Part shown: piece after piece, positions 3,001 to 9,000 of the stretch
Numbering within the stretch: the stretch's first letter is position 1
How the letters are laid out: each line of letters begins with the position of its first letter
Source of the DNA: a virus
Taxonomy: Duplodnaviria; Heunggongvirae; Uroviricota; Caudoviricetes
Length of the DNA: 13,293 nucleotides
Virus record (IMG/VR): IMGVR_UViG_2711768048_000003
Strand: one strand, 5' to 3'
Program-made: the position numbers

Positions 3001-6000
3001 GTTGTGTATTTTCAGCCTGCAAGAATACAAACACTGTCTTCATGGCATACAAAGGAATTCATAAGCGGTAAACCAAACAGACAGTTTATTGCCATAACTC
3101 AGGGACAAACCGGTGGTGATACATGTCCAAACGTTCAAATATGTATTGATGGTGCTCAGAAGCAATTAGGAAAAGCCGATGAAATCCTATCATATAAGAA
3201 CACAACATTCTTGGTGTACAACAAACCAATTGAAACAGATATAAAGTAATTTAATGCAAGAGAGGGATATTTCCCTCTCTTTTTTATTAATAATTCCCCT
3301 CAGAAAGGAAGCTGTAAACCCCGGGACCACCTGCAATATTACATGTCCACGCCTTTGGTTGTCCTGAAGCAGGTGCGCTATTGATAACGCGTTCGCCTAT
3401 ATCCCAGAAACCGGATGTAGGTACTGACGAAAGATAAAATGTTGTTTTTTCAACTTGTAACGCATTTGATGGCATTCCATATACACAAAGAGACGGTGAG
3501 TTTATGAGTACATTTCCTGAACCATAATTTCTTATGCCAACATTTATAGCTGTAGCCGTTGCGTCTATATACACACCACAACTAACATAGCGCCATTTCC
3601 CATTACCAGCTAAAGGTGCTGTAGAGTCTGTTTGTCCTGCACCATTAACTATAAACATAAGTTTTGACGCTGCTCCCTGGTCATTTACCCACGCACCAAA
3701 CCATACAAATTTCCCTTTTAGTTCTGGTGATTTGTTGAGGTCTATCGTTCGTCCCCAAACTCTATCTCCTGTCGTAACTAAGAATGAATAATTACCAGCA
3801 TAGATGTTTTGAGTTTTTATCAATGTTCCTGTGGTTCCAGATGTCGCGGTCCAGAGCAACATATTTCGATCAAGATAGTTAGCAGTTAACTCTCTGTTCG
3901 CAATATCTATTAAATGCGCAGTGTCAGGGTTTTGTGTCGCCGGGTCATAACTACCAACGTATCCTATGGAGTTCACTGTGTTGTTGGCAAGATATAGCCT
4001 GTCAGTAACTTTGGACGAAAGATTATTGTGGTACATTGCTAATAAATTATTCACTTTCGATACGTCTAATAACTGATTATTTTCAATCGTCAGGTTTTTC
4101 GCATAGTTCGTGAAAATAAATCCGTCTTGGTTAGGTAGCGCGCTGGCGTAGCCAATCGCGGTCTGCTGATTCCCGCGAATAGATACGGTATCATTAATTT
4201 TTGAAAGGTCAGGAATTAATGTAAAATTGTTCGCGATAAGGTGGATATCCGCACGTACTGTAATAGACTCAGGTACACTATACGGGTAACCAATCTCACC
4301 GTTGCGTTCCCAATAGTTATCATCAAGGTTAAGGCCTTTAACCCCGTAAGCCAAAAGTCCGTAGAACTTATTTTGCTCTATATTGTTGCCATTAACTCTG
4401 ACGCTCATACCGCCCTCAGCGTAAGCTGGCGTAAGTAAAACTCCACCGGCTCCGTTACCATAGATACGGCTGTTGATTATATTAATATTATTGCAGAAAC
4501 CACCAACATTAATACCGTTACCGGCGTTTTGAAACAACCGGCACCCAATGATGTCAATGGAGTAACCGTTAACTAATATTGCGTTGTTATTAGTATTAAC
4601 CACGTCAATATTTTCTATTTTAATGTGGTTGGCTTCAGTAAGACTGATGCCGTTAGCTGCGTAGCCATTTCCGTCAAGACCAAAGTCCCTGAACTCGCAG
4701 AACGCAATTACCCCATCTTGTTGCGTGATTATCGGTGCCGCTGTACCCGTAGAGAAAATTCTGGACTGATATGCGCCAGCACCTCGTATCATGGTGACAG
4801 TATTCTTAATCGTAATACCAGGGTCAACAATGAACGCCCCCTCTGGTATAACAATCTCAGTTGGCAACGTAGCATCATCAATAGCCTTCTGAAATGCAGC
4901 TTTGTTCTGAGCACCGGTGTTTCCCTCAGCAAACCCGTAGTCTGTAAGCGTCCTCAGGTCGATAGTTAGCTTTTTTGAGAGAATGGTCGATGTGCTATCG
5001 ACAAACTGTGGGTTATGCATGACTAGAGAGTCGCCAAGTGAGTGATCTTCGCTCAGGAGATTGCCCTTAAACTGATCTGGATCATACTTTAGCACATTCG
5101 GAAAATAGAACTGCTGCGCACCGTATGCATCATAAACAGCCATAGAATGGCCTTGCACAGTTACGAACTTGGCAATCTGTCCGTTATATACAGGGTAACC
5201 AGCAGCGTTAATGATGATTGGTTGCGAAACAGGAACGTGAGAGCCGTCTTCGTTTTCCACATAAACCTGAATCTGGTTTTCAGGATTTACCGGGTCCGTG
5301 TCAATTTTACCGATATAAATTTTGCCATTAGTTACGGCTTTAAAAGAACGCGCCATAGTGAAGAGTTGCGAAGGCATGCTTACCACAACATTTGCGGTGA
5401 TATCTGACATTTCATTGCTCCAGACGAATGATATGATGCAACCATGATGTGATTGCATACCGAAATGGTACTATTGAGTATTTATCCAGTAGGTTACGAT
5501 GCCATTCCACCCAACTGGTGAGGCATCAAGGATGTACAGCAAATACGACGAGGCGCAGTTTCACTTGAGACTTCCGCATGAACTCCACGCGAAAATTAAG
5601 CAGCGTGCGAAGATGAATAACAGGTCGCTGAACTCAGAGATAATTGCAGCGATTGAGGAATCATTGGATAAACAAAGCTCTGCATCAGTTTACATTGACG
5701 ATGCAGAGCGTATGGCAGAACAACAATCTGATATGGTTAAGAAAATTGTCTTTGATACGCTCAAGAAGCTATATAAAAAAGACAGCAGATAACCATCCGT
5801 TACGGAGGATTTATGCACAGAGATATGCTGAATATTGCGTTCTACATATTTGGTTTTTGCACGTTCCTGGTGTTTGCAAAGCTATTCTGACAACGCATCA
5901 GACTTAGCCCCCTGCGTCAGGGCGTTAATGGCCTTTTGCGCCTGCTGCATGGCTTTCTCAAACGCTGTTGATCCGCGTGGGGTGTTTGCCATTCGGAGCA

Positions 6001-9000
6001 TTGCATTTCTGAATGGCTCGCTCTCATAGGCGCGAGTAAGAAGTCCGTAGCTTACCGCTGCGCCAGTTGTCGCCGGGTTCATTGCCGTCCCATACCCGAT
6101 AATGAACGGGATAGTTTGCTGCCCCGTTGGTGTTGTTACTGCCGCTTTTGCTGCCTGCTGAGTGGATTGAAGGTAGTTTTTCAATCCTTTCAGATAAGCG
6201 GCTTCCTGACCTTTAAATGTGATGCCAGTCTGGTTTTGCAGGATGTTAAGCTGTCGAAGGAACTGGTCAGGGGATCCGCCAGATTTCTCCATCGCCTTTC
6301 CAATGATGCCATTGCGCATTTGCGCCCTGCCAACACGACCAACTGAGTTATACAGAGTCTTAATTTCCGATTTGTTCTTGCTGAATAGCATGTTGTTGAC
6401 AACTTCCGGCGTCAGGTCGCCTTTCATGATAACATTCTTCAGCCTGGTATTCTTTAGTTTCGCCGCTTCGTCAGCGTAGACGGCATTGGCCTGCTGATAT
6501 TTACGGAGAGTATCGTTGCCAAGATTCTGACCAATGGCACCATTGATATCGTCAGTCATTGCCTTGTAAACGCGCTGAATGGCAGCATCGGAACGGTTTG
6601 GTAACACTGGTCGCTCACCCTTCACGTCCATTCTGAACTGGCTGCGCAGGTCGCTTAATTGCTTCAAATCCAGATTTACCGGACCATCAGGACCAGCATT
6701 GCGAACAAGCTCATCACGATAGGACTGAAGTTTTGAAATAGTCTCGTTATCGGCGACCTTACCAAGCTTCTGCAGATTAGATATTTCTGTATCAATCTGC
6801 TGAATTGCTCGCGCAGGCTGAATGTTTACTCCAGCCATAGCATTCTGAACCTGCTCCAGTCGATTACCGGCGGCACGACGAATTCCTGATGTTTTCGCTT
6901 TAAGGCTGTCAATAACAACCGCTGGATCATACTCACCGAATTTATCGGCAAATCTCTGCACCAACTGGCTTCTCGCTTCCTGTTGCGTTGCTCTCATTCC
7001 GCTTGTGCCAGCCAGAGGGATATTTTCTGCTGTAGTCTGCGCCATTTTTCCGACGCGGGAAGTTGGTTGTAACAGGTCTGTGGTGTGAAGAGGAACTCCT
7101 TCACGCTCTGCAAATCTGATAGCCTGCTGCGCTTCTGGCGAGATAGCGCCACGAACGCCACGATAAGCAGCACCTAATCCACGTCCGGCAGCGTTAATAG
7201 CACCGCCAGCAAGTACACCAACGCCTAAATCGGTGGCGAGTGCTTCCGCATCATCTTTCGCACTATTTGCAGCAAGTGATCCAACTGCGTTTTCTGCTAG
7301 AAGGCGAGTTGCCCCCTGAGCAATTCGACCAGCAAGTGTTGGTGCCTGTGTTGCCGCTCTCTCAACGCCAGCAGGAGTGAGGTAAGGCAATGCTTCAGCA
7401 AATACCCTTCCCTCTGTCGTTTGTGGAGTCAGCGCGCCTTGCTGAAGGCCAAAGTCCTGCTCTAATCCCTGCGTTGTTACTCGTGGTGCTGGTTGATATG
7501 TACCATCGCCAATGCCGAGTTTACCGCCAGCCCAAGCCGCCGCGCTTGTTACAGCATCAGTGAGTTCAGCAGGTATGTTCGCTACGTTGATTCCTGCCTG
7601 TAGTAAGCCGCGCCCGGTTTCAGCAAGTCCATTACCAAGGTCAGACATTATTCCGCCTTGCTGCTGAACAGGTTTCGGTGCGACAGAACTTACGGGTTGA
7701 GGTGGCTGCTGACTGGCTGCCTGCTGCTCAATCTGAGCAAATGGATTATTTGGGTCTGACTGCACGCCTGATGCCGATACTTGTTCGGATGACTGTGCTT
7801 CCAGTTGTGCAAACGGGTTGTTAGGGTCTTGCTGAGGATGTACCTTTGCAGAGGTGGCGCGCTGTTCGACTGTTGAGTCTGTCACCGGGTCACCCGCCCA
7901 TTGAGCAAAGCGATCATCAACGTAACCGCGGCCTTCAGGTCCTGGCGTATATTCACCACGCTTTGCCTTCATAACGTTGCCGGGACCGTCGTGATAAGCC
8001 TGAAGAGCGTCACGCCAGTTACCAAACTGCTGGTACATCTTTGCCAGATAGCGCGCGCCAGCGTCAGCCTGATATTCGGGGTTTTGCATTTGCTCATCGG
8101 TATAACCCATATCACGCCATGTCCCAGGCATGACCTGAGTCAATCCTACAGCCCCGGCGGAGCTTACTGCGGCAGGGTTGTAAGAAGACTCCTTGGCACC
8201 CAGTGCAGTCATCAACCCTTCTGGCACACCGTAACGTGCGCCAGCCTGCTCTAACAAATCACGGTAATTAGCCATTTACTGCCCCAAAGATGGAAGATAT
8301 CCGTAGCGATTAATGAAGTCGATTGACAGCTCGGGGTGCTGCTTCAGGTAATCTATAGAAGCCTGAGGCGCTTCCACTCGCTTGATACCGTTTTGCTGAA
8401 CGTACTTACCAACCGCCTCATTACGCTTCTGGTTGAGCGTGTTCAGGATGACGCCAGCGTTGCGACGAAAGGACTCCTCGCTCTGCGAGTTCTGCAGCGA
8501 ACCAACAGCCTGGTCGAGCTTTTTGCCCTCGGCATCAGAAAGTGCGCCCATGCCTCGCATGGCCTGAACCGCTGTCAGGTATGCTTGTGATTTAAAGGTA
8601 TCAAGTCGTGCCTGAGTGTCTGCAGCCTGTGAGCCTGGAACGTTGGGGATTACTCCACGTAAGCCTGTAATGCTCTTAAGTGAAGGAGAGCTAACGATAT
8701 CGTTCAGAGTGAACATGCTGGTTGTGAGGGTGTTGATGCCGTCTTTGTAGCCATCATTTAGCGCTTGCTGCTTCTGCTGCAACTGCTGGTTGTTGGCTGC
8801 TATGCGGCTCTGTATTTCCTGGCGCTTCAGGTCGTTAGTTTCTGCTGATAGCATCCGGTCAAGGCGCTTATTTTCGTTGTTAATGCGGTTTGTTTCTGCG
8901 TCCAGATTAATGCGCTGCTGACCTAAATTCGCCTGGATATCTTGTCCGCGCATTGTGATTGCCTGATTCCGAGCGGCGGTTTGCGAATCCAGATCCTGAC

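What the first reader, a model, noticed from the sequence alone, without database searches (positions are those of the whole stretch)
5882..8275. Ejection protein with fused N-terminal lytic transglycosylase domain and tandem DPNNPFAQ repeats
The N-terminus carries an unmistakable SLT family-1 motif (AKESSYNPAAVSSAGAVGLTQVMPGTW, catalytic Glu in KES), a peptidoglycan-cutting domain delivered with the ejected proteins, as in T7 gp16. Next comes an exact-motif tandem repeat DPNNPFAQLE / DPNNPFAQIE (7799-7828 and 7727-7756) separated by a 14-aa spacer, then long Ala/Gly/Gln-rich low-complexity stretches. At 797 aa it is larger than the P22 gp16 I recall (~600 aa). The repeat may be a flexible linker or a hotspot for recombinational length variation.
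Basis: partly seen in the sequence, partly recalled or inferred. Interest (0 to 1): 0.55.

Follow-up and report, generated by a model that had tools for sequence, protein, structure and literature searches.

The report
Wall-cutting phage ejection protein, twin docking motif
This gene encodes a P22-type phage DNA-ejection protein with a cell-wall-cutting enzyme at its front end, which is already annotated elsewhere; its small repeated peptide is one copy-pair of a widespread, apparently undescribed twin motif that co-varies with the tail of the neighbouring ejection protein.

Summary
ORF 5882-8275(-) is 797 aa. Residues 1-127 are a family-1 lytic transglycosylase (Pfam SLT E=2.8e-25) with the catalytic Glu29 and the GLxQ and AYxxG motifs intact. 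DPNNPFAQ[LI]E occurs twice, 24 residues apart.

The protein is the gp16/Sf6-gp13-type ejection protein of a P22-like prophage, which is defective in this window. It is a mosaic. Residues 1-206 are about 100% identical to phage Sf101. Residues 207-797 are 97-100% identical to Sf6 gp13.

The enzyme fusion is not new. Phage IME10 carries the gene at 97% identity, 52 complete E. coli genomes carry it full length, and RefSeq names it correctly. It does contradict a 2022 review stating that P22-like phages lack this domain.

The "recombination hotspot" idea fails. Copy number is always two and there is no DNA-level repeat: 7 of 8 shared residues use different codons.

The new lead is the repeat itself. 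It belongs to a twin N-x-F-[DA]-Q-Φ motif found at the start of hundreds of phage proteins. In 96 of 99 loci the upstream gp20-like protein ends in a conserved tail. One tail residue co-varies with the motif (Fisher p = 6e-24, uncorrected for phylogeny). This suggests a gp20-gp16 docking interface, which is inferred and not shown.

The parts
5882..8275 (-). Gene for the 797-aa gp16/Sf6-gp13-type ejection (DNA-transfer) protein with an N-terminal lytic transglycosylase module
   Evidence: ORF. PHROG 770 matches aa 108-797 at E=1e-239. 97.3% nucleotide identity to phage IME10, and full length in 52 E. coli genomes.
7895..8275 (-). Family-1 lytic transglycosylase (SLT/GH23) domain, aa 1-127. There is no signal peptide; the domain starts at about residue 4.
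   Evidence: Pfam SLT E=2.8e-25. The AlphaFold model has pLDDT 88-98 over aa 1-110 (about 80 for aa 111-120) with its last helix at aa 113-127. Foldseek PDB hits are all lytic transglycosylases.
8189..8191 (-). Codon for the catalytic Glu29 (K-E-S)
   Evidence: Aligns with Slt70 E478 and T7 gp16 E37. Invariant in the 71-sequence SLT alignment.
7844..7870 (-). Conserved post-domain segment VEQRATSAK (aa 136-144)
   Evidence: Almost invariant in 17 homologues. A similar QRATSAR segment is present in the divergent C130_2 and Kc237 proteins. Function unknown.
7799..7828 (-). Twin motif, copy 1: DPNNPFAQLE (aa 150-159)
   Evidence: Column identity 0.91 in homologues. It matches the N-x-[FY]-[ADE]-[QE]-Φ pattern, which gives 29 hits against 0.9 expected in gp16-family representatives.
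7757..7798 (-). 14-aa spacer between the motif copies (aa 160-173). Its sequence varies but its length is fixed.
   Evidence: Column identity 0.66. The length is constant in all homologues examined.
7727..7756 (-). Twin motif, copy 2: DPNNPFAQIE (aa 174-183)
   Evidence: Column identity 0.99. 7 of the 8 residues shared with copy 1 use different codons.
7658..7726 (-). Gln/Pro-rich hinge (aa 184-206). It is length-variable and marks the mosaic junction between the Sf101-type N-module and the Sf6-type body.
   Evidence: 35% Gln and 22% Pro. It contains indels in homologues. Identity to Sf101 ends at gene nt 618 and identity to Sf6 starts at nt 676.
5885..7657 (-). Sf6-gp13-type body (aa 207-797). 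It is predicted to be all-helical, with moderately hydrophobic Gly/Ala-rich segments at aa 345-363 and 724-742.
   Evidence: 97-100% identity to Sf6 gp13 per 40-aa block. The AlphaFold model is low confidence (mean pLDDT 46) and helical. The hydropathy maximum is 1.36, so there is no classical transmembrane helix.
8279..8371 (-). C-terminal tail of gp20 (aa 413-443, APQASIDYLKQHPELSIDFINRYGYLPSLGQ), the proposed partner of the twin motif
   Evidence: It matches the tail pattern found upstream of 96 of 99 twin-motif genes. Tyr before the invariant Leu pairs with Pro in N-P-F, as the covariation rule predicts.
8276..9607 (-). gp20-type ejection protein gene, abutting the start of gene 16
   Evidence: PHROG 2534 E=4e-194. 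Pfam Inj_translocase matches aa 10-225. Its C-terminal ~270 aa and gp16 aa 1-206 form one mosaic block relative to Sf6.
9617..10312 (-). gp7-type ejection protein gene
   Evidence: PHROG 598 E=4e-98.

Best explanation
The gene encodes the largest of the three ejection proteins (the gp16 / Sf6 gp13 type) of a P22-like (Lederbergvirus) prophage. The short N-terminal module seen in P22 or Sf6 is replaced here by a 206-residue module made of three parts:
- a family-1 lytic transglycosylase domain (aa 1-127);
- an extended linker carrying two copies of DPNNPFAQ[LI]E;
- a Gln/Pro-rich hinge, followed by an Sf6-type helical body.

Inferred mechanism, by analogy with T7 gp16 and with P22/Sf6 genetics: the protein is packaged in the capsid and expelled through the tail at infection. 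It has no signal peptide, so ejection is its only route to the periplasm. There the enzyme domain cuts glycan strands locally so that the gp20/gp16 conduit can cross the murein. The body goes on to the inner membrane.

The twin motif is not a spacer. It is the local form of a widespread twin N-x-F-[DA]-Q-Φ element. It most likely docks onto the conserved C-terminal tail of the preceding gp20-type protein, coupling the two proteins during packaging or conduit assembly.

Shown here: domain identity, catalytic residues, mosaic origin, motif conservation, and co-occurrence and covariation with the tail. Inferred: enzymatic activity, virion location, ejection, and physical contact between motif and tail.

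In this particular genome the prophage is a remnant, so the gene is probably not in use here, although the ORF is intact.
For: Identity and enzyme:
- Pfam SLT, Slt70 and T7 alignments with the catalytic Glu, invariant motifs, and fold.
- PHROG 770, and synteny needle-gp14-gp7-gp20-gp16-Mnt-tailspike.
- 97% identity to the isolated phage IME10.

Mosaic structure:
- aa 1-200 are 100% identical to Sf101, and aa ~230-797 are 97-100% identical to Sf6 gp13.
- P22 and HK620 carry other short N-modules.

Parallel with T7:
- In T7, the transglycosylase domain (Y4-V145) is followed by an extended loop and a two-helix tip that bind two adjacent gp15 subunits (bioRxiv 10.1101/2021.01.04.424714; PMC8954989).

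Motif:
- Exactly 2 copies in every homologue whose ORF spans the linker.
- Synonymous divergence between the two copies.
- 29 hits against 0.94 expected in 115 gp16-family representatives, and 14 of the 15 proteins with the motif have exactly two.
- 101 distinct IMG/VR proteins start MAN[PF]FDQFD, and all have a second copy, at a median of 14 aa later.

Partner:
- 96 of 99 upstream ORFs end in A-[IV]-x-x-L-[KR]-x-N-P-...-F-x-x-K-Y-G.
- In the reverse direction, 53 of 64 downstream ORFs ascertained by the tail carry the twin motif.
- Sf6, HK620 and P22 lack both features.
- N-F-F pairs with Ala (37/41), and N-P/A/V-F pairs with a residue other than Ala, mostly Tyr/Met/Phe/His (83/86). Fisher p = 6e-24. 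The association holds within both tail classes and across at least 16 and 68 body clusters. The window obeys the rule.
- The gp16 N-module is inherited together with the gp20 C-part.
Against: - No experiment shows that this protein is in virions, is ejected, or is muralytic.
- P22 is reported to carry its virion murein hydrolase in gp4 (PMC5380687), so the SLT domain may be accessory. The T7 gp16 domain matters only under some conditions, according to PMC8954989.
- The motif-tail link could partly reflect adjacency. The two elements lie a few bases apart across the gene junction, so they are inherited together. The covariation test is not corrected for phylogeny.
- No structural prediction of the complex could be run.
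- Similarity of the motif to the T7 gp16 tip (KPFAKDFWE, residues 204-212) rests on a forced global profile alignment with low posterior confidence.
- AlphaFold gives the linker pLDDT below 62.
- The prophage in this window is defective.
Confidence: 0.8

Rival explanations
1. The twin motif and the gp20 tail do not bind each other. Both are signals recognised by a third component, for example the scaffold, portal barrel or gp14 chaperone during incorporation into procapsids, or a host envelope protein after ejection.
For: The tail itself contains a motif-like core (N-P-x-L-x-x-Q-F-D-x-K-Y-G), so all three elements could fit one kind of site. The first copy usually sits at the extreme N-terminus (M-A-N-x-F), as a terminal tag would. 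How P22 ejection proteins are incorporated has not been worked out, to my knowledge.
Against: The size-compensating covariation between motif position x and the tail residue before Leu (Phe with Ala; Pro with Tyr/Met/Phe/His) is what direct contact predicts. A shared third partner would instead predict parallel changes, not complementary ones. The partners would have to be conserved across phages whose other proteins have no detectable similarity.
Confidence: 0.2
2. The two identical motifs are proteolytic processing sites. They release the enzyme domain (or other bracketed domains) from the body after packaging or ejection.
For: In several lineages the two copies bracket a domain: SLT in C130_2, Kc237, P0357, P0369 and P0386; a GNIDIHNRP domain in P0284 and P0327; a lysozyme-like domain in L208 and L257. 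P22 gp7 is known to be trimmed by host OpdA (record note).
Against: In most proteins the copies are only 9-30 residues apart with nothing between them, and the first copy starts at residue 3. Cleavage there would release only a short peptide. P22-like phages have no prohead protease, to my knowledge. The covariation with the gp20 tail is not explained.
Confidence: 0.08
3. One reading: the repeat is a passive flexible linker or a slippage/recombination hotspot that generates length variants.
For: The region is predicted to be disordered or low confidence. It lies next to the mosaic junction, and the nearby Q/P hinge does vary in length.
Against: Copy number and spacing never vary. The motifs are more conserved than their surroundings. 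There is no DNA repeat, and the copies have diverged synonymously. The motif recurs in unrelated proteins.
Confidence: 0.05
4. The SLT domain is a vestigial or non-entry function, for example an inactive relic or an aid to lysis rather than to DNA entry.
For: The module is optional within the family. Only about 8-10 of the top 150 gp16-family representatives align from the N-terminus, and 70 E. coli genomes carry the SLT module against 348 with any part of the gene. P22 itself manages without it.
Against: All catalytic and structural motifs are intact, and the domain is 92% conserved across homologues. It is fused to a virion-internal protein with no signal peptide, exactly as in T7 gp16. Muralytic domains recur at this position in several independent lineages.
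Confidence: 0.07

Closest known systems
Shigella phage Sf6 gp13 / Salmonella phage P22 gp16 (DNA-transfer or ejection protein; PHROG 770)
   Same: The body (aa ~230-797) is 97-100% identical to Sf6 gp13 and about 35% identical to P22 gp16. The gene position is the same, after gp7 and gp20 and before the tailspike region.
   Different: Sf6 (665 aa) and P22 (609 aa) carry short, unrelated N-terminal modules with no enzyme domain and no N-x-F-x-Q-Φ motif. Their gp20 proteins also lack the conserved tail.
Phages IME10, Sf101, Huey, Dewey, APC_JM3.2 and E. coli / Cronobacter / Klebsiella aerogenes prophage proteins named 'lytic transglycosylase domain-containing protein'
   Same: IME10 and 52 E. 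coli genomes carry the same full-length gene at 97-98% nucleotide identity. Sf101 and its relatives share aa 1-206 at about 100%.
   Different: Sf101-type proteins (911 aa) join the same N-module to a body that is only 10-40% identical. None of these proteins has been characterised experimentally in the papers I could search.
T7 gp16 (internal virion protein D; PDB 7K5C gp15:gp16-N)
   Same: It has an N-terminal family-1 lytic transglycosylase in an ejected internal protein. It is 28% identical over 130 aa, with the catalytic Glu aligned. In T7 the enzyme domain is followed by an extended region that binds two subunits of the preceding tunnel protein. The arrangement proposed here is parallel to that.
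   Different: There is no detectable similarity beyond about aa 190; PHROG 342 matches aa 3-189 only. The T7 body is 1318 aa and unrelated. T7 has one weakly motif-like segment (KPFAKDFWE), not a twin motif.
Hungariovirus / Murrayvirus-type DNA-transfer proteins (phage C130_2 gp37, Kosakonia phage Kc237, phage sortsyn)
   Same: These are SLT-bearing gp16-family proteins. The SLT region is 53-63% identical, a QRATSAR segment is conserved, there are two motif copies, and the gp20 protein ends in ...YG[YF]LPEGL.
   Different: The motif copies flank the SLT domain (M-A-N-V-F-D-Q-F at the N-terminus, and G-N-V-F-D-Q-F after it) instead of both following it. The bodies are over 1000 aa and 12-40% identical.
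E. coli Slt70 and other cellular family-1 lytic transglycosylases (MltC, MltE, LtgA)
   Same: Catalytic domain fold and motifs match; Slt70 is 33% identical in the structural alignment.
   Different: The cellular enzymes are exported by a signal peptide or lipobox and carry other accessory domains. This domain has no export signal and is fused to a virion protein.

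Membership tests
Family-1 lytic transglycosylase (Pfam SLT PF01464 / GH23) | Profile match above the curated threshold | tested here: met
   88.6 bits against a 21.3-bit cut-off, E=2.8e-25, aa 7-110.
Family-1 lytic transglycosylase (Pfam SLT PF01464 / GH23) | Catalytic Glu in the E-S motif | tested here: met
   E29-S30 aligns with Slt70 E478-S479 and T7 gp16 E37-S38. Invariant in 71 sequences.
Family-1 lytic transglycosylase (Pfam SLT PF01464 / GH23) | Motifs G-L-x-Q and A-Y-N-x-G | tested here: met
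   G44-L45-T46-Q47 and A93-Y94-H95-D96-G97. G44, Q47, Y94 and G97 are invariant in alignment A3.
Family-1 lytic transglycosylase (Pfam SLT PF01464 / GH23) | Lysozyme-like helical fold | tested here: met
   The AlphaFold model has pLDDT 88-98 over aa 1-110. The top 48 Foldseek PDB hits are lytic transglycosylases.
Family-1 lytic transglycosylase (Pfam SLT PF01464 / GH23) | Muralytic activity producing 1,6-anhydro-muropeptides | not testable with these tools
   Needs a zymogram or HPLC of digestion products.
P22 gp16 / Sf6 gp13 ejection (DNA-transfer) protein | Sequence homology of the body | tested here: met
   PHROG 770 E=1e-239. 97-100% identical to Sf6 gp13 and about 35% to P22 gp16 over the C-terminal 570 aa.
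P22 gp16 / Sf6 gp13 ejection (DNA-transfer) protein | Gene order: needle, gp14, gp7, gp20, gp16, then the tailspike region | tested here: met
   Window ORFs 10770-11618, 10315-10770, 9617-10312, 8276-9607, 5882-8275 and 3287-5458, all on the minus strand.
P22 gp16 / Sf6 gp13 ejection (DNA-transfer) protein | Present in virions and released before DNA entry | not testable with these tools
   Known for P22 (PMC10883804). Not shown for this variant.
T7 gp16 (internal virion protein D) | N-terminal lytic transglycosylase in an internal/ejected protein | tested here: met
   (7k5c_B, E=1.5e-3).
T7 gp16 (internal virion protein D) | Homology of the remaining ~1100 residues | tested here: not met
   PHROG 342 aligns aa 3-189 only. 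BLASTP finds nothing beyond the enzyme domain within the T7 N-terminal 268 aa that I compared. This protein works like T7 gp16 but is not a member of its family.
T7 gp16 (internal virion protein D) | Post-enzyme segment that binds the preceding tunnel protein | tested here: inconclusive
   Co-occurrence and covariation with the gp20 tail support an analogous contact. Sequence alignment to the T7 tip is weak. No complex model could be made.
Twin N-x-F-[DA]-Q-Φ motif proteins (defined here, not a curated family) | Two copies of the motif ahead of the body, and an upstream ORF ending in the ...L-[KR]-x-N-P...F-x-x-K-Y-G tail | tested here: met
   NPFAQL at aa 153 and NPFAQI at aa 177. The gp20 tail ...SIDYLKQHPELSIDFINRYGYLPSLGQ matches the tail pattern.

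The most novel reading that the evidence does not exclude
The 'DPNNPFAQ repeat' is one instance of a previously undescribed, deeply conserved bipartite interface in podophage-type ejection operons. A twin N-x-F-[DA]-Q-Φ motif sits at the front of the gp16-like protein. It clamps the C-terminal tail (A-[IV]-x-x-L-[KR]-x-N-P...F-D-x-K-Y-G) of the gp20-like protein, one motif per tail. The motif pair can also bracket cargo domains (a lytic transglycosylase, a lysozyme-like domain, a GNIDIHNRP domain) that are carried into the periplasm. The interface persists in hundreds of viral contigs whose proteins are otherwise unrecognisably diverged. It would be the sequence-level counterpart of the T7 gp16-N 'molecular tape' on gp15.
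Probability: 0.35. Interest if true: 0.7.

Novelty: new member of a known kind. Interest (0 to 1): 0.45.

Why it matters
The enzyme fusion itself is ordinary and already annotated. Its main value is as a correction. [quoted passage not shown] In fact a minority of P22-like phages and prophages carry it, and several neighbouring genera do too. These include the isolated phages IME10 and Sf101, which would make genetically tractable systems for asking when a virion murein hydrolase matters.

The more useful result is the twin motif and the gp20 tail. How the three ejection proteins of P22-like phages recognise each other, enter the procapsid and assemble into a trans-envelope conduit is not settled, and I found no solved structure of gp16. 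A short, mutable, sequence-defined interface gives concrete residues to mutate: Phe155 and Phe179 in gp16, and Tyr/Leu in the gp20 tail. It also gives a pair to co-fold, and a marker for finding ejection-protein operons in metagenomic phages whose proteins match no family.

Tried and rejected
1. Word-indexed protein search with the linker alone (aa 111-208) returned one partial protein and was uninformative. The search with aa 1-225 returned mostly unrelated short SLT proteins. These were later reused as the alignment for the structure model.
2. A full-length AlphaFold model from an 18-sequence alignment of close homologues was poor (mean pLDDT 46, pTM 0.26). I therefore made no fold search of the body and make no claim about its fold beyond 'helical'.
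3. Homology of the linker to the T7 gp16 'tip' was tested with a global profile-profile alignment. It puts motif 2 on T7 residues ~204-210, but with low posterior confidence. I treat this as a lead only.
4. Casjens & Thuman-Commike 2011, Casjens & Grose 2016 and Swanson et al. 2021 are not held in the library. I could not check whether the SLT-bearing gp16 type is already mentioned there, and it may well be.
5. A text search for the motif strings found only unrelated acronyms.
6. tblastn of a 48-aa twin-motif N-terminus against named phages found a single hit, probably because the query is short and filtered. I could not name a structurally studied phage that carries the motif.
7. N-terminal 'modules' with gp7, gp20, NinG or needle sequence fused to the Sf6-type body (P0232, P0236, P0240, P0241) turned out to be rare fusions (one member sequence each, seen on 1-4 contigs). 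They look like prophage-decay deletions rather than real module types.
8. The ~95-aa GNIDIHNRP insert has no Pfam, PHROG or PDB sequence match.
9. A classical transmembrane helix in the body was not found; the maximum 19-residue hydropathy is 1.36.

Full report

Yes. The window has a 797-codon ORF at 5882-8275 on the minus strand.

- Pfam SLT (PF01464) matches residues 7-110 at E=2.8e-25, 88.6 bits against a curated cut-off of 21.3.
- A search of PDB sequences aligns residues 4-102 with the catalytic domain of E. coli Slt70. This puts Glu29 (K-E-S) on the catalytic Glu478.
- T7 gp16 aligns over 130 residues at 28% identity, with Glu29 on its catalytic Glu37.
- In an alignment with 70 diverse SLT proteins, E29, S30, G44, Q47, Y94 and G97 are invariant. 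These make up the E-S, G-L-x-Q and A-Y-x-x-G signatures of family-1 lytic transglycosylases.
- An AlphaFold model of residues 1-215 built on that alignment has pLDDT 88-98 for residues 1-110, and its last domain helix ends at residue 127. Its best 48 Foldseek matches in the PDB are all lytic transglycosylases (LtgA, Slt70 at 33% identity, MltE, MltC, MltF). T7 gp16 in the ejectosome structure 7K5C comes next.
- P22 gp16 is 609 aa.

**2. What the gene is**

Its neighbours on the same strand are, in order: a tail needle with knob, gp14, gp7, gp20, this gene, a Mnt/Arc-like gene on the other strand, and a tailspike. A gtrABC O-antigen conversion cluster lies beyond. This is the late-operon end of a P22-like (Lederbergvirus) prophage.

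PHROG 770 ('DNA transfer protein') matches residues 108-797 at E=1e-239. The protein is therefore the gp16 / Sf6 gp13 ejection protein.

It is a clean mosaic:
- Residues 1-200 are 100% identical to phage Sf101 and 99% identical at DNA level to Huey, Dewey and APC_JM3.2.
- From about residue 230 onward it is 97-100% identical to Sf6 gp13 and only 10-40% identical to Sf101.
- The junction lies in a Gln/Pro-rich hinge (aa 184-206).

P22, Sf6 and HK620 carry other short N-terminal modules joined to their bodies in different combinations. P22 starts MKVTANGKTFNF..., and Sf6 and HK620 start MAKAWKDV.... The N-terminus of gp16 is therefore an exchangeable module, and the SLT-bearing 206-residue module is one of its forms.

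**3. Is the fusion new?**

No.
- Phage IME10 has the whole gene at 97.3% nucleotide identity.
- 52 of 5,426 complete E. coli genomes have it full length, and 70 have the N-module. RefSeq calls it 'lytic transglycosylase domain-containing protein'.
- The Sf101 record calls its version 'transglycosylase'.
- Homologues at 72-86% identity are common in Cronobacter, Klebsiella aerogenes, Kosakonia and Enterobacter.
- More distant SLT-bearing gp16-family proteins occur in Hungariovirus C130_2, Kosakonia phage Kc237 and Murrayvirus.
- In an exhaustive search of 50%-identity cluster representatives, 521 proteins match at E<1e-30. Of the top 150, only about 8-10 align from the N-terminus. The SLT form is therefore a recurrent minority.

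[quoted passage not shown] A review of virion-associated lysins lists gp4 as the P22 murein hydrolase (PMC5380687). I could not read Casjens & Thuman-Commike 2011, which may already describe this type.

**4.

- It is not a DNA repeat. No direct repeat is detected, and 7 of the 8 residues shared by the two copies use different codons. Slippage or unequal recombination is therefore unlikely.
- Length variation is indeed not seen. All 50 IMG/VR loci whose ORF spans the linker (one of the 51 fetched is truncated before it), 17 homologues at 73-89% identity, and 67 E. coli genomes have exactly two copies 24 residues apart.
- Within the linker the motifs are the conserved part. Column identity is 0.91 and 0.99 for the motifs, 0.66 for the spacer and 0.60 for the Q/P hinge.

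This pattern is typical of a short linear motif under selection. The spacer between the copies has constrained length but free sequence.

**5. The motif reaches far beyond this family**

Within the gp16 family:
- Among 115 gp16-family representatives of at least 550 aa, the pattern N-x-[FY]-[ADE]-[QE]-[FLIV] occurs 29 times. Shuffling gives 0.94 expected, with a maximum of 5 in 200 shuffles. Fifteen proteins have the pattern, and 14 of them have it exactly twice.
- The two copies may be 10-27 residues apart at the extreme N-terminus, as in MANPFDQFD...NPFDQFD.
- They may instead bracket a domain. The bracketed domain is an SLT domain in C130_2, Kc237, P0357, P0369 and P0386. It is a ~95-aa GNIDIHNRP domain in P0284 and P0327. 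It is a lysozyme-like domain in L208 and L257.
- In the window's family both copies follow the SLT domain. Locus L269 has the same order, with a muramidase-like domain first.

In viral contigs:
- Scanning IMG/VR with three such proteins returned 101 distinct proteins that start MAN[PF]FDQFD. The first copy is there by ascertainment. The second is not, yet all 101 have one, at a median of 14 residues downstream.
- None of the five such proteins tested matched a PHROG family, and three tested against Pfam gave no significant match.

**6. A conserved partner**

- In 96 of 99 of those loci, the ORF that ends within a few bases of the motif gene's start codon finishes with a conserved tail: A-[IV]-x-x-L-[KR]-x-N-P-x-L-x-x-x-F-[DK]-x-K-Y-G. 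The tail continues either Y-L-P-E-G or A-G-A-x-x-x-L-G.
- The window's gp20 ends ...SIDYLKQHPELSIDFINRYGYLPSLGQ, and Kc237's ends ...INYLFSNPTPSVKQQFQEKYGFLPEGL.
- Sf6, HK620 and P22 gp20 end differently, and their gp16 proteins lack the motif.
- The reverse test ascertained loci by the tail pattern alone (334 matches, 80 examined). It found the twin motif at the start of 53 of 64 distinct downstream ORFs.
- One position co-varies across 127 distinct pairs. When the motif is N-F-F, the tail residue before the invariant Leu is Ala in 37 of 41. When the motif is N-P/A/V-F, that residue is something other than Ala, mostly Tyr, Met, Phe or His, in 83 of 86. Fisher p = 6e-24.
- The association holds within each tail class (p = 8e-7 and 5e-15). 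It spans at least 16 and 68 crude body clusters.
- A large residue paired with a small one, and the reverse, is what a direct contact predicts. The window follows the rule (Pro with Tyr).
- The two motif copies also agree with each other at that position in 114 of 127 proteins.
- The mosaic structure fits too. Relative to Sf6, the window has exchanged one block made of gp20 residues ~170-443 plus gp16 residues 1-206. Relative to Sf101, it has kept that block and exchanged the gp16 body.

Caveats: the tail and the motif are adjacent in the DNA, so linkage alone produces co-occurrence. The covariation test is not corrected for phylogeny.

**7. How it most likely works**

Shown: the domain, its catalytic residues, the mosaic origin, the motif and its partner statistics.

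Inferred from T7 and P22 knowledge:
- The protein is packaged in the head and expelled at infection.
- Having no signal peptide, the enzyme can reach the murein only that way.
- The enzyme opens the glycan mesh locally for the conduit.
- The helical body proceeds to the inner membrane. It has no classical transmembrane helix, only moderately hydrophobic Gly/Ala-rich segments at 345-363 and 724-742.

In T7, the region after the gp16 transglycosylase domain is an extended loop plus a two-helix tip. It binds two neighbouring gp15 subunits and completes their folding. By analogy, I propose that the twin motif binds two gp20 tails. A global profile alignment places motif 2 on the start of the T7 tip (KPFAKDFWE), and AlphaFold starts short helices at each motif's Phe. 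Both signals are weak.

Alternatives are a shared third partner (a packaging signal) or processing sites. Both are less consistent with the complementary covariation and with the very short spacers.

**8. Context in this genome**

The prophage is a remnant. gp10 is cut to its last ~68 residues at about 11,843. It is joined to fragments of early genes (an exonuclease fragment and abc2) and is followed by an IS3 transposase fragment at 13,009-13,275. No complete E. coli genome covers the left 5.9 kb of the window. The gene is intact but probably idle here. Its function should be studied in IME10 or Sf101.

**9. Verdict**

The enzyme fusion is a known kind that is already annotated, so it merits low interest. 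The twin motif and its co-varying gp20 tail are an apparently undescribed and testable lead on how ejection proteins recognise each other. That raises the overall interest to moderate.

Noticed in passing
window 11618-13293: The prophage is defective. The gp10 (head-completion) gene is reduced to its last ~68 codons (ORF 11618-11869). Homology to intact prophages stops at about 11,843. Fragments of early-left genes follow (an exonuclease fragment at 12122-12529 and abc2 anti-RecBCD at 12546-12839), then an IS3-family transposase fragment (13009-13275).
   Followed up: partly
window 8279-8371 (gp20 C-terminus) and loci L066-L288: There is a conserved ~30-aa C-terminal tail (A-[IV]-x-x-L-[KR]-x-N-P...F-D-x-K-Y-G, then YLPEG or AGAxxxLG) on the protein encoded just upstream of twin-motif genes. 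One pattern alone gives 334 matches in IMG/VR. No Pfam or PHROG model covers it.
   Followed up: yes
P0237, P0238 (665-aa Sf6-type proteins; clusters of 2252 and 1304 members): NCBI names these 'lytic transglycosylase domain-containing protein', although they have no SLT domain by Pfam or NCBIfam. The name seems to have spread from SLT-bearing relatives through the shared body.
   Followed up: partly
L050 3501-4463; P0220, P0228, P0229 (877-886 aa); P0284, P0327 aa ~18-107: A ~95-aa domain (GNIDIHNRPVV...DGSISTVRS...EVLIPTV...TGKHLGIF) is inserted right after motif 2 in some homologues and sits between the two motifs in others. It has no Pfam, PHROG or PDB sequence match. tblastn also finds it in Klebsiella phage Klyazma 'IVP-C-like protein' and in a Salmonella phage SPC32H structural protein.
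   Followed up: partly
P0232, P0236, P0240, P0241: These are rare proteins (one member sequence each, seen on 1-4 contigs) in which tail needle, gp7, NinG or gp20 sequence is fused in frame to the Sf6-type body. In two of them (P0232, P0236) the junction is at the ...QQQGG-[IF]-[MI]-SDLG boundary used by the SLT module; the other two join further upstream, within the Sf6-type N-terminal module. They are probably prophage-decay deletions. That boundary may be a preferred breakpoint.
   Followed up: partly
L003 3902-7036 (Kosakonia phage Kc237); L005 (phage sortsyn): In Kc237 an intact 1044-codon ORF with a GTG start, encoding the SLT-bearing DNA-transfer protein, is annotated as three small genes plus a truncated 'lytic transglycosylase'. 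In sortsyn the gene runs off the end of the linear record.
   Followed up: no
window 450-3249: A gtrA-gtrB-gtrC O-antigen glucosylation cluster lies convergent with the tailspike. The 506-aa gtrC candidate has only a weak PHROG match, as expected for a serotype-specific transferase.
   Followed up: no
window 5499-5792 (+): A Mnt/Arc-family repressor gene lies between the tailspike and gene 16. There is no sieA homologue at the position it occupies in P22.
   Followed up: no
window 3287-5458 (-): The tailspike has the conserved P22-type N-terminal head-binding domain (about aa 17-140) joined to a receptor-binding body of PHROG 8846, which has unknown specificity. The closest E. coli matches include O26 strains.
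   Followed up: no
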